A stretch of DNA of 17,599 nucleotides from IMG/VR virus record IMGVR_UViG_2826849342_000003; one strand, given 5' to 3'. This DNA is from a virus (taxonomy: Duplodnaviria > Heunggongvirae > Uroviricota > Caudoviricetes). Position numbers: made by a program. Positions 3,001 to 9,000 of the stretch are shown piece by piece (within the stretch, counting starts at the first letter, position 1; each line of letters begins with the position of its first letter).

Positions 3001-6000
3001 CCCAGACCTGATTTGGTGCTGTAGGAGCGAACGTCTGGTTCAGCAGATTTGGCGCAACTGGCAGATTATGGTTCGAGTTCGTAGTCGCTCTGAACTTGCG
3101 TTTCTGCTTACAGCGTAGCCTTAGCTCCTTACGAAGACGTGCCAGTCGGTCACGACCAACGATGATGCCATTCTCTGCCAGCTCCGTCTGGAGCCGCCGG
3201 GTTCCATATGTTTCGCGAGTGCGGATATGTGCCACCTTAATCTCCAGTTTTAGCCGCTCATCACTTTGTTTTCTGTCTGAGGGTTCATGCTGTACCCAGT
3301 TGTAATAACCGCTCCTGGATACACCAAATACCTGACACATCGCTTCAATGGGAAATTGTTGTCGCCATTGTTCGATTAACGCGTATTTTTCAGCGACTCC
3401 TGTGCAAAATACGCTGTTGCTTTTTTTAATATATCTCGCTCAAGGCGAGCTTCATTTAACGCCTTACGCAGTTGCAGAATTTCAGATTCCAGTTCAGCCA
3501 CCGTGCGGGAACCAGGAGTACCGAGCCCTTTTCTGGCGGCGGTAACCCATTGTCCTAAAGGGCCTTCAGGAAGGGATAATCGGGAAGCGCCTTCACTGAT
3601 CGAAAGTTGATTTTCAAGAACCGTTCTGACAGCTTCGGCTTTGAACTCTTTAGAGTAACGTTGGGTTTTTCTGCTCATTATTAGCTCCTTCTGATGCCAT
3701 TCTATTTCAGGAAGGAGTGTCCGTTAAACTCAGGCTACCTCAGTCGTCGGACAGTTGCCTGGCTCCTCTGGTGATGAGATGTTCCCCTCACTCACAACTG
3801 GCTGGATGAACTCCGCACCATAACCAGCTGTCGAAATCAGCGCACTACCATAAGGCTGCCACCCTTCCTTCAGTTTTTGAGTTATTCGTTTCGCAAGGTC
3901 TGACGGCGACGCCACCCTGACAACATCATAGTGTTTAAATGCCATGAATCCTCCCGGCCGGGATAATATTGTGAGTAAAATAAGGAGCGGGCTGAAGTCC
4001 GGAAGTTACAGGACAATGGCAGAAGGGAGACTACAGCCCGCAATTCGAAAAAGGTCGCGCAGTTGCGCAGAGTGATTACTATGGGGTATTATTCGCCAGC
4101 TGAAATATTACTTCACGTTTCATTGTTTATTCCTTGCCGCCCGCGTCTCCCAGCGCGGGCTTTTTTGTCCATAAGAAAGCCCCTCCGGAGAGGGGCTGGA
4201 GAGTGGCGCGATGTGCCATTGTATGGTGCCGGGTGCCTCCCGGTGAGTTCAGCCCGGTGCCACTAAACCCGCGTCATTCTCGTTTTGATAATCAGAGATT
4301 ATACCGTCACCAGTCGCCCCTCCGCTCAGGGGGATTCACCATGCAGTTTTTTCTCACAAATTCTCATCCGGGCAGACAACATTCAACTGACTTAATTGTG
4401 AGGTATGTAACATTCCTGTTGAACGGATACAAAAAAAGCCAGCCACCAGGGGAGGCTGGCAAACTCGTAGAGCAAAATGCTGTTACGCAAACTTCGTTAC
4501 AGGGTTATCCTGCAATACTTAAAATATACAATATTTAGAAAACTAATAGTGCCATATGAGATTTTTAAGATTTTGTTATTAATTGCGGTCGCACCTTCCT
4601 TTCTGTGTACTTTCCGTATAGCTCACAGGATTCTGGGTACAAAAAAACCCGCGCATCGGCGGGTTCGGCTGCGTGGCAATGTAACCACTCTTATCATGAT
4701 ATGCAGATTTTTACGTACGTAAAATACTTTTTTGGCATCCCACTTTATTCAGGTATGGAATCAAACAAGAGGACCGGGGTTCTACGGCGCTTTACACCCC
4801 CTCGGGCGAGGATTTTCGAGCTCTTTTTTTACCACATAGCAATGTATTCAGTCGGCGTTGTTTGGGGCTTCTGCATGGACGACACCAGCTTTGCGGCCTT
4901 TTCTTATTCCCACAAATTCTGAATCCGAATTTTTTCTCAATTTCCTCATCAGAGACAGCTATTTTGCCGCAGAGGGGGCAAGTGTGCTTTTTATCATACT
5001 CGGTTTTCAGCACCTCAATTAACTTACGAATTAATGGCTTGATGTCATAAACGTTCCGCAAATCATAATCATGACCGATTTGAGCATAACTTATCTTCTG
5101 CAACATCCCTTTCTCCTCCAGGCGTTGAAAGCCTTCTTCTATAATGGCACGAGATGCACGCATTCTGGTGGCAAAAAGAGATATTGACGGTAATGTTTGT
5201 GAATCTACATCCTGATGAAATGTAGACTGGCCCCCTGAATCTCCAGACAACCAGTATCACTTAAATAAGTGATAGTCTTAATACTAGTTTTTAGACTAGT
5301 CATTGGAGAACAGATGATTGATGTCTGAGGTAGACTGAGTTGGTGATGCTTCCAATTAGTAGAACATGTGTTTTTCAATAAACGTCCCGATGACTTTTTC
5401 GTGGATCTCTACTGAACGCGAGAAGCAGATTGTTTTACGAGCCAAGCGCTTAATGCGGGTGCGCAGCGTCAGGTTATTGCGCTCAATCCGTTGGGTGAAT
5501 ATTTTTCCGGTCAGATGCTTATCCTTCGGCACCTCCCGGCCATAGCTGCCCCAGTCGTCGCTGGTGAGCATGCCGATGTTGAATGGCGTAAGCAGTGCCA
5601 GTAGTTCCCGGCAGGTTTCATCGGTACGGGGACCAAAAGTGTAGGCCAGTACCCCCCCTGTTTTGGTGTTATACGCGTACCAGAGCCAGTGTTGCCGGGC
5701 TTTACTGCCAACGAAACTCCATTGCTCATCAAGTTCGCAGATAAGCGCCACATCAGCATGAGCAACGGGCGAAGACGTTATTCGCTTTGGCGTGAGTTTT
5801 TTAAAGTCCGGATGACGGTGTTAATGCCAATTTTCAGTGTCCTGGCGGTATCGCGAACCCCGGCGCCATTGAAGGCCATTTCAGTGATCAGCTCTTTAAT
5901 GCCCGGCTTACGGGCCTCATAAGTGTAAGTGAGCTGAAAAACGCGGTGGCAGTCACGGCAGCGAAATCTGTCATGGCCTTTAGGGTTCTGACCATGGCGG

Positions 6001-9000
6001 TAGACCTGTGCAGACTGACAACGAGGACAATGAATGTTAACGCTGGCCATGAAAGAACCTCAAAAGCCCGCATTATACATCAGATTCAACTAATTAGAGG
6101 CATCACCCCTGAGTTTAACGGACACTCCTTCCTGAAATAGAATGGCATCAGAAGGAGCTAATAATGAGCAGAAAAACCCAACGTTACTCTAAAGAGTTCA
6201 AAGCCGAAGCTGTCAGAACGGTTCTTGAAAATCAACTTTCGATCAGTGAAGGCGCTTCCCGATTATCCCTTCCTGAAGGCACTTTAGGACAATGGGTTAC
6301 CGCCGCCAGAAAAGGGCTCGGTACTCCTGGTTCCCGCACGGTGGCTGAACTGGAATCTGAAATTCTGCAACTGCGTAAGGCGTTAAATGAAGCTCGCCTT
6401 GAGCGAGATATATTAAAAAAAACAACAGCGTATTTTGCACAGGAGTCGCTGAAAAATACGCGTTAATCGAACAATGGCGACAACAATTTCCCATTGAAGC
6501 GATGTGTCAGGTATTTGGTGTATCCAGGAGCGGTTATTACAACTGGGTACAGCATGAACCCTCAGACAGAAAACAAAGTGATGAGCGGCTAAAACTGGAG
6601 ATTAAGGTGGCACATATCCGCACTCGCGAAACATATGGAGCCCGGCGGCTCCAGACGGAGCTGGCAGAGAATGGCATCATCGTTGGTCGTGACCGACTGG
6701 CACGTCTTCGTAAGGAGCTAAGGCTACGCTGTAAGCAGAAACGCAAGTTCAGAGCGACTACGAACTCGAACCACAATCTGCCAGTTGCGCCAAATCTGCT
6801 GAACCAGACGTTCGCTCCTACAGCACCAAATCAGGTCTGGGTGGCGGACCTGACGTATGTTGCCACACAGGAGGGATGGTTGTACCTCGCTGGCATCAAA
6901 GATGTTTATACGTGCGAAATTGTCGGCTACGCCATGGGAGAGCGCATGACAAAAGAGCTGACAGGTAAAGCCCTGTTTATGGCGCTCAGGAGCCAGCGCC
7001 CACCTGCCGGGCTAATCCACCACTCTGATCGAGGTTCACAGTACTGCGCATACGATTACCGGGTCATACAGGAGCAGCTTGGTCTGAAAACATCAATGTC
7101 GCGTAAAGGTAACTGTTACGACAACGCTCCGATGGAAAGCTTCTGGGGAACGCTGAAAAATGAGAGCCTGAGCCACTATCGTTTTAATAACCGGGATGAA
7201 GCCATCTCAGTAATACGGGAATACATTGAGATTTTCTACAATCGTCAGCGTCGTCACTCTCGTCTGGGGAATATCTCCCCGGCAGCCTTCAGGGAAAAAT
7301 ATCATCATATGGCTGCTTAAAAAAAGAACAAATGGTAGTGTCCGCTATTGCCAGTACACCTCAGATATCGCCAACCAGATCCGAACTCCCCATGATGGAT
7401 GCGAGCTGCTCCTCGTTGTAATCCCGCCCAAATACGGTATTACTGGTTTTTACGCAAGCCAGATCAGGCATTGAGGGGGCAAAAAACTCGTAATCACTCA
7501 GATCACCACGCTGGATAAGCTCACGAATCGTTGTAGGCTTGATCAGGCATTCGTAGTACTTGCCCATCCAGGCCGCGAACGGGGTACCGGAAAGCCCAAG
7601 AACCCTGATGTCTTTGTCCCGGATAACCTCAAGTAACGCACGGCGCTTCATGTGTGCTTCATCGATGATCAGCAGATCGATATTGTCAGGGAACTCACGA
7701 CGGATCAGCGTGTCAGCGCTGGCAATCTGAATCAGTCGTGACGGGTCATAGTTAGGGTGATCACGCCATACAAAACTGATTTCTTCCCACGGCAAACCGT
7801 ATTCGGTGAAACGCTCTGCTGTCTGGTTCAGCAGGATTGTGTACGGGCAAACGAACATCACCCGCATACCACGTTCAACCATTCCGGCTGTGACGAATGC
7901 TGCAAGACCAGTTTTTCCAGAGCCAGTGAGTGCGTACATCAGGTACGTGCGATGCTGTTTCCACTCGTGCCGCAGCTGGTTTAAACCGCGCTCCTGTGCA
8001 AAGTTTGGGGTGATTTTCAGCATGACGCCCCCTTGCTACGTGGTTTACCCGTTGCCGGGATCACGTCGATCTCATCACTAACGTATTGTTCAGGATTTCG
8101 TGAGCAGCGCAGAAGCACGATACCAGGAATGCCGTATAGCTTGAGTCTGCGCAGTTTCAGTATTGAACGTGCCCGTGGTGATGCTCTGTCCACCTCGATC
8201 GCGCACCGTTCACCAGATGGGGCAACGGCCACGATATCGACGAATCCGCGCTTACCGTTGCCCATATCAACCAGATAATTACGTTCGATCGCCAGTCCGG
8301 CATCACGCAATTTGGCAGCCAGCACATAATCAAACGTGACCTTGTCTTTTCCGGTGTAGAATTGGTTTCCGAGCAGGCTGACAACCACATTTTTGATGAA
8401 CGCGGTACTATTTCCACTGTGATAGTTGGCGTGATAATAATTTCACAAGAAACCATCCCGCCATATACAGTGATCTACCTAACCTATGGAGCTGTCTTTC
8501 TGGTAGTGCCCTTACGGGCACGGATGTTACAGATCTGCCCCCTTACCCCCTTCTTAGTAAAATTTCAGACAAAATAATTTCACATACAATTATTTCTCAA
8601 GAAACAATACCTTACTGAGGTTTTACTCCTTCCGTATCGCTACTGGCGAAATCATCCAGCCACGGCTGGCTCTCGCGTACTTCTGGACATACACCCGTAA
8701 CCGGGTGTTGGCGCTCCGTCTTGCCCTGTTGCCCTTCCTGAACGATACAGGCTCCTTGTACCACTCTTCCTGGTACACTCTCGGGTGATGCCTCTAATTA
8801 GTTGAATCCGATGTATAATGCGGGCTTTTGAGGTTCTTTCATGGCCAGCGTTAACATTCATTGTCCTCGTTGTCAGTCTGCACAGGTCTACCGCCATGGT
8901 CAGAACCCTAAAGGCCATGACAGATTTCGCTGCCGTGACTGCCACCGCGTTTTTCAGCTCACTTACACTTATGAGGCCCGTAAGCCGGGCATTAAAGAGC

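What the first reader, a model, noticed from the sequence alone, without database searches (positions are those of the whole stretch)
5326..6123. iso-IS1 nested inside the left inverted repeat of IS600 copy 2
IS600 positions 1-16 (5326-5341) precede the IS1 and positions 9 onwards follow it (6108-), giving an 8 bp target duplication (ACTGAGTT and CCTGAGTT, one mismatch). An IS1 insertion into the terminal repeat probably inactivates that IS600 end, and records the order of events: IS600 first, IS1 later.
Basis: seen in the sequence. Interest (0 to 1): 0.4.

Follow-up and report, generated by a model that had tools for sequence, protein, structure and literature searches.

The report
IS1N nested in IS600 end
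One small jumping gene (IS1N) has landed inside the end of another (IS600) in the Shigella dysenteriae type 1 chromosome; this is an ordinary, already-sequenced nested insertion, and the odd one-base mismatch in its flanking duplication is private to this strain.

Summary
A 766-bp IS1N (5342-6107, minus strand) sits between IS600 positions 1-16 (5326-5341) and 9-1264 (6108-7363). Removing it with one 8-bp copy restores a 1264-bp IS600 with 8 mismatches to copy 1.

The window is identical to Shigella dysenteriae chromosome CP024466.1. Five other S. dysenteriae assemblies, including Sd197, carry the same nest with a perfect 8-bp duplication (CCTGAGTT on both sides). The A at 5334 is therefore a strain-private change or sequencing error that arose after insertion.

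Two other IS1N insertions also have 8-bp duplications. One is strain-private, at 8784-9549, with exact empty sites in eight other contigs. The other lies inside an IS600-like element on plasmid pSD1_197.

The order is IS2, then IS600, then IS1N, because IS600 itself cuts an IS2 left end (5223-5325).

The break falls between the outer (1-6, 10-12) and inner (17-29) conserved blocks of the IS600 terminal repeat. By analogy with the two-part ends of IS911 and IS2, this should disable that end. That step is inferred, not shown. The IS600 genes and their promoter-like site remain intact.

This is a routine IS pile-up in an IS-saturated genome, of low interest.

The parts
5223..5325 (+). IS2 left-end stub of 103 bp: the terminal repeat TAGACTGGCCCCC... 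and the first 12 nt of orfA (ATGATTGATGTC), cut off by IS600 copy 2.
   Evidence: Sequence. Plasmid matches start at 5223 (H61/H62). Records matching this stretch annotate it as an IS2-family transposase (H77, H78). The identification of the IS2 repeat also rests on my own knowledge of the IS2 sequence.
5326..5341 (+). IS600 copy 2, positions 1-16: the outer part of the left terminal repeat. It carries a strain-private A at 5334 (IS600 position 9).
   Evidence: Five sister assemblies have C at this position.
5334..5341 (.). Left copy of the 8-bp IS1N target duplication. It reads ACTGAGTT here and CCTGAGTT in sister strains.
5342..6107 (-). IS1N copy A, 766 bp. insA is at 5778-6050 (minus strand), the A6C frameshift motif at 5796-5802, and the insB' frame runs down to 5356. 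It encodes an intact 90-aa InsA and 231-aa InsAB'. The insA-proximal end abuts the IS600 body at 6107.
   Evidence: 99.7% identical to annotated IS1N; terminal repeats; NCBIfam transpos_IS1 and the IS1 zinc-binding domain; reading frames.
6108..6115 (.). Right copy of the 8-bp target duplication, CCTGAGTT (IS600 positions 9-16).
6108..7363 (+). IS600 copy 2, positions 9-1264. It contains the inner part of the left repeat, a promoter-like site at 6115-6143, orfA at 6164-6466, an A7G frameshift motif at about 6415-6422, orfB at 6502-7320, and the right repeat ending CCTCA at 7363.
   Evidence: (99% inverted match to 2470-3734), (transpos_IS3, 335 bits against a cut-off of 160; promoter-like site; intact OrfA and OrfB).
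2479..3742 (-). IS600 copy 1, an uninterrupted 1264-bp element used as the reference for the reconstruction.
8784..9549 (+). IS1N copy B, 766 bp, with 3 differences from copy A. It has a perfect 8-bp duplication CACTCTCG (8776-8783 and 9550-9557). It is private to this strain and serves as an internal control for IS1N length and duplication size.
   Evidence: The exact empty site is present in L001-L005 and L007-L009.

Best explanation
This is a simple transposition of IS1N into the left terminal inverted repeat of an IS600 copy that had itself earlier inserted into the start of an IS2. It lies in a decayed prophage region of the Shigella dysenteriae type 1 chromosome.

**Shown**
- IS1N made a staggered 8-bp cut at IS600 positions 9-16 and duplicated CCTGAGTT.
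- In this one strain the left copy later changed C to A at 5334, or was mis-sequenced.

**Inferred**
- The insertion leaves IS600 positions 1-16 (the cleavage tip TGAGGT and the CTG block) 774 bp away from the inner conserved block at positions 17-29. In IS3-family elements that inner part is where the transposase N-terminal domain binds.
- This IS600 copy should therefore no longer form the left-end/right-end synapse, the figure-of-eight or the circle.
- Its orfA, orfB, frameshift site and promoter-like site all lie to the right of the break and are intact, so it could still make protein.
- IS1N copy A is itself coding-intact.
For: - Reconstruction: the rebuilt element is 1264 bp with no gaps and 8 mismatches to copy 1.
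- Chance: the 16-mer has an expectation of 0.01 in the window.
- Recurrence: the same nest occurs in six independent assemblies, and five have a perfect 8-bp duplication. The window is identical to CP024466.1 over all 17599 bases.
- IS1N length and duplication size are independently calibrated. The strain-private copy B has exact empty sites elsewhere. A third IS1N on pSD1_197 has the 8-bp duplication AACTGGAG.
- IS1 is reported to make 8- or 9-bp duplications (PMC12428005).
- The IS600 left and right repeats match at positions 1-6, 10-12, 17-18, 20-27 and 29, so the 16|17 break separates the two blocks.
[quoted passage not shown] For IS911, the outer part of the repeat is not protected by OrfAB[1-149] in footprinting (PMC2909936).
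- The only promoter-like site in 5200-6400 is at 6115-6143, to the right of the break.
- The reading frames are intact.
Against: - No functional test of the split end exists. The domain boundaries are borrowed from IS2 and IS911, not measured for IS600.
- No genome with the pre-insertion state (IS600 at this locus without IS1N) was found. The order of events therefore rests on the duplication logic alone.
- IS600 copy 2 lacks its own 3-bp duplication: its flanks are GTC and GAT. Its right flank is a truncated helicase-like gene rather than IS2. At least one further rearrangement therefore occurred, and its timing relative to the IS1N insertion is unknown.
Confidence: 0.9

Rival explanations
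1. The stub and the body belong to two different IS600 copies. They were brought together by homologous recombination between two IS1N copies, or by an IS1N-mediated deletion or inversion, rather than by one simple insertion.
For: This region has clearly been rearranged. Neither IS600 copy has a 3-bp duplication, and the four IS600 ends abut four unrelated sequences. The duplication has one mismatch in this strain.
Against: Five sister assemblies have a perfect direct 8-bp repeat of IS600 positions 9-16, and the parts rebuild exactly 1264 bp. Recombination would require two independent IS1N insertions at the same base and in the same orientation in two IS600 copies.
Confidence: 0.03
2. The match of 5326-5341 to the IS600 tip is chance, and IS600 copy 2 is simply truncated at position 9 by IS1N.
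For: None beyond the shortness of the stub (16 bp).
Against: The expected count of such 16-mers with up to 2 mismatches in the window is 0.01. The stub sits exactly against IS1N, overlaps the body by exactly 8 bp, and matches 16 of 16 in five other strains.
Confidence: 0.005
3. The nest is real, but the IS600 left end still works. For example, the transposase may need only the outer 16 bp, or the 2038-bp chimera may move as a unit.
For: The outer tip, both transposase frames and the right end are all intact. IS600 end requirements have never been mapped, as far as the searched literature shows.
Against: Ends are two-part in the two IS3-family members that have been studied. The most conserved repeat block, positions 20-27, now lies 774 bp from the tip. 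No second copy of the chimera appears in 72,556 plasmids, 5,426 E. coli genomes or the species-representative genomes.
Confidence: 0.06
4. The nest is an assembly artefact caused by repeats collapsing.
For: IS-rich regions are prone to misassembly, and IS copies differ by a few bases between assemblies.
Against: The identical architecture appears in six independently produced assemblies, including Sd197 (CP000034) and the draft ADUT01000048.
Confidence: 0.005

Closest known systems
IS1N (iso-IS1 of Shigella dysenteriae; IS1 family)
   Same: It is 99.7% identical to copies annotated 'IS1-like element IS1N'. It has GGTGATGC... terminal repeats, insA and insB' with an A6C frameshift, and an 8-bp duplication.
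   Different: Nothing of note. By the filled-versus-empty-site comparison it is 766 bp rather than the 768 bp of K-12 IS1. It differs from copy B at three positions.
IS600 (IS3 family)
   Same: The rebuilt element is 1264 bp with TG...CA tips, orfA and orfB with an A7G frameshift motif, and a transpos_IS3 score of 335 bits. Matching records are annotated as IS600 family.
   Different: The left repeat is split after position 16 by IS1N. This copy has no 3-bp target duplication, and its right flank does not continue the IS2 that its left end interrupts.
Nested or piled-up insertion sequences in Shigella genomes
   Same: IS1, IS2, IS4, IS600 and IS911 have all expanded in Shigella, and S. dysenteriae type 1 has the highest IS density (PMC7373316). 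A second IS1N inside an IS600-like element, and an IS600 end abutting another IS600 fragment, occur on pSD1_197.
   Different: Here the hit falls inside the terminal repeat rather than the body. It therefore affects end recognition rather than the transposase gene.
Two-part terminal repeats of IS911 and IS2 (outer cleavage domain, inner binding domain)
   Same: The IS600 left and right repeats show the same pattern: a conserved tip and a conserved inner block separated by non-conserved bases.
   Different: The domain limits were measured for IS2 and IS911 only. Applying them to IS600 is by analogy.

Membership tests
IS1 family (IS1N) | Length of about 768 bp bounded by imperfect terminal inverted repeats beginning GGTGATG | tested here: met
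   766 bp, with ends GGTGATGCTTCCAATTAG... and GGTGATGCCTCTAATTAG.... The boundaries are fixed by copy B's filled site against the empty sites in other strains.
IS1 family (IS1N) | insA and insB' frames joined by a -1 frameshift at an A6C motif to give the InsAB' transposase | tested here: met
   A 90-aa InsA, an A6C motif at 5796-5802, and a 231-aa fused frame without stops. NCBIfam transpos_IS1 and the IS1 zinc-binding domain also match.
IS1 family (IS1N) | 8- or 9-bp target duplication | tested here: met
   8 bp here, perfect in five sister strains. Copy B and the pSD1_197 copy also have 8 bp. The literature gives 8 or 9 bp (PMC12428005).
IS1 family (IS1N) | Near-identity to the named isoform IS1N | tested here: met
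   99.5-99.7% identity to many records whose transposase is annotated 'IS1-like element IS1N family'.
IS3 family (IS600) | TG...CA termini with imperfect terminal inverted repeats | tested here: met
   TGAGGT... at 5326 and ...ACCTCA at 7363. The left and right repeats match at positions 1-6, 10-12, 17-18, 20-27 and 29.
IS3 family (IS600) | orfA and orfB with a programmed -1 frameshift motif and a DDE (rve) transposase | tested here: met
   A 100-aa OrfA, a 272-aa OrfB and an A7G motif at IS600 position 316. transpos_IS3 scores 335 bits against a cut-off of 160. The rve Pfam domains appear on the gene calls.
IS3 family (IS600) | 3-bp target duplication flanking the element | tested here: not met
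   The flanks are GTC and GAT for copy 2, and GAC and CAG for copy 1, read in the element's own orientation. This reflects the later history of these copies (rearrangement) and does not bear on family membership.
Simple nested insertion (one IS inside another) | Removing the inner element plus one duplication copy restores the outer element exactly | tested here: met
   1264 bp with no gaps and 99.4% identity to copy 1.
Simple nested insertion (one IS inside another) | Existence of the uninterrupted (pre-insertion) allele at the same locus | tested here: inconclusive
   All six long assemblies carry the nest. Short-read contigs end at the IS600 boundary. No uninterrupted IS2'::IS600 junction was found in the plasmid or E. 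coli collections.
Inactive IS600 end | Loss of transposase binding, cleavage or circle formation at the split left repeat | not testable with these tools
   Inferred only, from the position of the break relative to the conserved blocks and from IS2 and IS911 biochemistry.

The most novel reading that the evidence does not exclude
The IS600 terminal repeat, or IS600 in general, could be a preferred IS1N target. IS-on-IS hits would then act as a self-limiting brake on IS600 expansion in S. dysenteriae type 1. Two IS1N-in-IS600 nests were seen (chromosome and pSD1_197). The two IS1N targets in the window share 5 of 8 bases when read in the same orientation (CCTGAGTT and CGAGAGTG). Alternatively, the 2038-bp chimera might still move.
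Probability: 0.05. Interest if true: 0.3.

Novelty: already known. Interest (0 to 1): 0.08.

Why it matters
It matters little beyond bookkeeping. The nest gives a clean relative chronology for one locus: IS2, then IS600, then IS1N, then a private point change. It also gives an example of one expanding IS probably disabling a copy of another in the most IS-dense Shigella lineage. The nest is shared by all six S. dysenteriae assemblies examined, while IS1N copy B is private to one strain. The two junctions could therefore serve as lineage and strain markers. The structure has been in public genomes since Sd197 was sequenced, and it raises no new mechanistic question.

Tried and rejected
1. **9-bp or 7-bp duplication.** Neither fits the sequence. 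A 9-bp repeat would need GACTGAGTT to equal CCTGAGTTT. A 7-bp repeat leaves an unexplained extra base. Sister strains settle it at 8 bp.
2. **Inversion between the two inverted IS600 copies, to explain the missing 3-bp duplications.** This predicts that copy 1's left flank equals copy 2's right flank, and the reverse. The observed flanks are GAC/GAT and CAG/GTC, so it is rejected.
3. **Search for the pre-insertion IS2'::IS600 junction.** I used a 300-nt reconstructed query against plasmids and E. coli genomes. Every full-coverage match was in two pieces with extra DNA between them, so none had the same junction.
4. **Exact-pattern scan of species-representative genomes** for TGAGGTAGMCTGAGTTGGTGATGC. 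It gave 0 hits, so the collection evidently lacks an S. dysenteriae type 1 genome.
5. **The whole window and the 1.3-kb junction against plasmids and E. coli genomes.** No contiguous match was found. S. dysenteriae plasmid hits turned out to be a different IS1N-in-IS600 nest.
6. **Literature search** for IS600 + IS1N + Shigella dysenteriae found no paper, and the main Shigella IS paper does not mention IS1N or nesting.
7. **The apparent 781-nt and 1265-nt repeat lengths** overshoot the elements by a few bases. This comes from partial flank similarity, not from shared flanks.
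Full report
**1. What is in the sequence**

The stretch 5326-5341 reads TGAGGTAGACTGAGTT. It is followed at 5342 by GGTGATGCTTCC..., and that element ends ...GCATCACC at 6107. From 6108 the sequence reads CCTGAGTTTAACGGACACTCC....

Copy 1 of IS600 lies on the minus strand at 2479-3742. Its left tip reads TGAGGTAGCCTGAGTTTAACGG. A repeat search finds two pairs of inverted repeats:
- 2470-3734 with 6108-7372, at 99%.
- 5337-6117 with 8774-9554, at 99%.

Each overshoots the true element ends by a few bases. That comes from partly similar flanks, as reading the junctions shows.

The 16-mer of the IS600 tip occurs only at these two places in the window when up to two mismatches are allowed. Chance would give 0.01.

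Joining 5326-5333 to 6108-7363 gives exactly 1264 bp, with 8 substitutions and no gaps against copy 1. The inserted element is 766 bp and differs at 3 positions from the second copy at 8784-9549.

**2. Identity of the elements**

- **IS1N.** The 766-bp element is 99.5-99.7% identical to many plasmid and E. coli copies whose gene is annotated 'IS1-like element IS1N family transposase'. It encodes an intact 90-aa InsA, an A6C slippery motif (5796-5802) and an open 231-aa InsAB' frame. Copy B does the same. NCBIfam recognises the IS1 transposase and its zinc-binding domain.
- **IS600.** The outer element scores 335 bits on the IS3-family transposase model, against a cut-off of 160. Matching records annotate it as IS600 family. 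Both copies keep orfA, an A7G motif and orfB.
- **IS2.** Immediately left of the IS600 tip, 5223-5325 is the left end of IS2. It comprises the terminal repeat and the first 12 nt of orfA. Matching records annotate this stretch as IS2 family. The nest is therefore three deep.

**3. Where the window comes from, and what relatives show**

The truncated helicase-like ORF at 7361-8023 takes its stop codon from the IS600 right tip. An exact-sequence look-up of its protein returned Shigella dysenteriae chromosomes and short-read contigs. The window is identical over all 17599 bases to CP024466.1 (locus L006). The neighbouring plasmid accession CP024469.1 is strain BU53M1 from Burundi, so this is probably the same strain.

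All six long assemblies carry the same IS2'::IS600::IS1N nest: CP026777, CP026878, CP000034 (Sd197), ADUT01000048, CP026774 and CP024466. In the five others the left duplication copy reads CCTGAGTT, identical to the right copy. Only the window's strain has A at 5334. It is not a feature of the transposition event.

Across about 20 kb these assemblies differ from the window's strain by about 6 to 18 substitutions. A single private substitution is therefore unremarkable.

**4. Calibration of IS1N behaviour**

IS1N copy B (8784-9549) is present only in this strain. Five other chromosomes and three short-read contigs have the exact empty site with a single CACTCTCG. This fixes IS1N at 766 bp and its duplication at 8 bp, and it shows recent IS1N activity in this lineage.

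A third IS1N, on pSD1_197, sits inside an IS600-like element (92.6% identity) after IS600 position 501. It has the 8-bp duplication AACTGGAG.

IS1 is reported to make 8- or 9-bp duplications (PMC12428005). The event in the finding is therefore a textbook IS1-type simple insertion, and IS1N-in-IS600 nesting recurs.

**5. Consequence for IS600 (inferred)**

The IS600 left and right repeats match at positions 1-6, 10-12, 17-18, 20-27 and 29. The break between positions 16 and 17 leaves the tip on one side of IS1N and the best-conserved inner block on the other, 774 bp apart.

[quoted passage not shown] In IS911 the truncated transposase OrfAB[1-149] does not protect the external region of the repeat against DNase I, which the authors take to mean the terminal region is free for the catalytic domain (PMC2909936).

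By analogy, neither half of the split IS600 end is a complete substrate. This copy should be unable to pair its left end with its right end. That step is inferred, not shown.

Three features are directly visible:
- The only promoter-like site in 5200-6400 (TTAACG-17-TAGAAT, 6115-6143) lies to the right of the break.
- The IS600 reading frames are intact, so the copy may still express OrfA and OrfAB.
- IS1N transcribes leftward, away from the IS600 body.

**6. History beyond the finding**

Neither IS600 copy has a 3-bp duplication. The right flank of copy 2 is the truncated helicase-like gene, not the rest of IS2. A simple inversion between the two inverted IS600 copies does not explain the flanks. 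At least one further deletion or recombination has therefore occurred. I could not reconstruct it, because whole S. dysenteriae chromosomes are not searchable with these tools (one search found nothing in the species representatives). No uninterrupted IS2'::IS600 junction was found in the plasmid or E. coli collections.

**7. Comparison with what is known, and verdict**

S. dysenteriae type 1 has the highest IS density among the Shigella and E. coli reference genomes compared in PMC7373316, with IS1, IS2, IS4, IS600 and IS911 all expanded. IS-into-IS hits are expected there. This particular one has been in public sequence since Sd197. Every defining feature tested for IS1N, IS600 and a simple nested insertion is met. 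The one exception is the IS600 3-bp duplication, which reflects later rearrangement rather than identity.

The added facts are these:
- The one-base mismatch is strain-private.
- The nest is three deep.
- The inactivation claim is an analogy-based inference.

Novelty: already known. Interest: low.

Noticed in passing
window 14064-14112: A heptamer tandem array (ACCAATC)n lies directly upstream of the ribosome-binding site and ATG (14128) of a Rha-family phage regulator gene. Copy number varies between strains: 7 here and in Sd197, 11 in two assemblies, 4 in one, and 5 in two. It may be a typing-style variable repeat or a spacing switch for expression.
   Followed up: partly
window 8784-9549 (duplication at 8776-8783 and 9550-9557): A second IS1N is private to this strain. 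It lies between a cro-like gene and a 123-aa ORF. Exact empty sites occur in eight other S. dysenteriae contigs. This is evidence of recent IS1N movement.
   Followed up: yes
window 2479-3742 and 5326-7363: The two IS600 copies are inverted, with their left ends facing each other across 1.58 kb of phage remnant. Neither has a 3-bp duplication, and the four ends abut four unrelated sequences: a 164-aa ORF, a DUF1737 gene, IS2 and a helicase-like fragment. A simple inversion does not explain this.
   Followed up: partly
window 5223-5325: Only 103 bp of the IS2 left end remain. The rest of IS2 is not on the other side of IS600 copy 2 and is not elsewhere in the window.
   Followed up: partly
L011 (NC_007607.1 43277-45135, pSD1_197): Another IS1N is nested in an IS600-like element (92.6% identity) after position 501, with the 8-bp duplication AACTGGAG. 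An inverted fragment of another IS600 (positions 1157-1264) abuts the left end of that element.
   Followed up: partly
window 10008-13234: A cI/LexA-like repressor (237 aa) is followed by an Eco57I-type methyltransferase (507-aa ORF) and a BsuBI/PstI-type restriction enzyme (317 aa). The restriction gene is split into two ORFs in two other strains, L005 and L009.
   Followed up: no
window about 16300-17077 and 16997-17599: A divergent IS1 is only about 74% identical to IS1N over a 39-nt stretch. Matching plasmid records (H56, H65) list an IS1SD-family transposase among their features. It truncates an alpha-amylase-family gene next to pspE. An IS3-family element lies beside it at about 14900-16170.
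   Followed up: no
window 289-1811: Com and Mom gene calls (Mu-like DNA modification; Pfam Zn_ribbon_Com, Mom) sit next to a serine invertase/resolvase and directly beside the suf operon. This points to a large deletion or rearrangement between the ycjM and suf regions.
   Followed up: no
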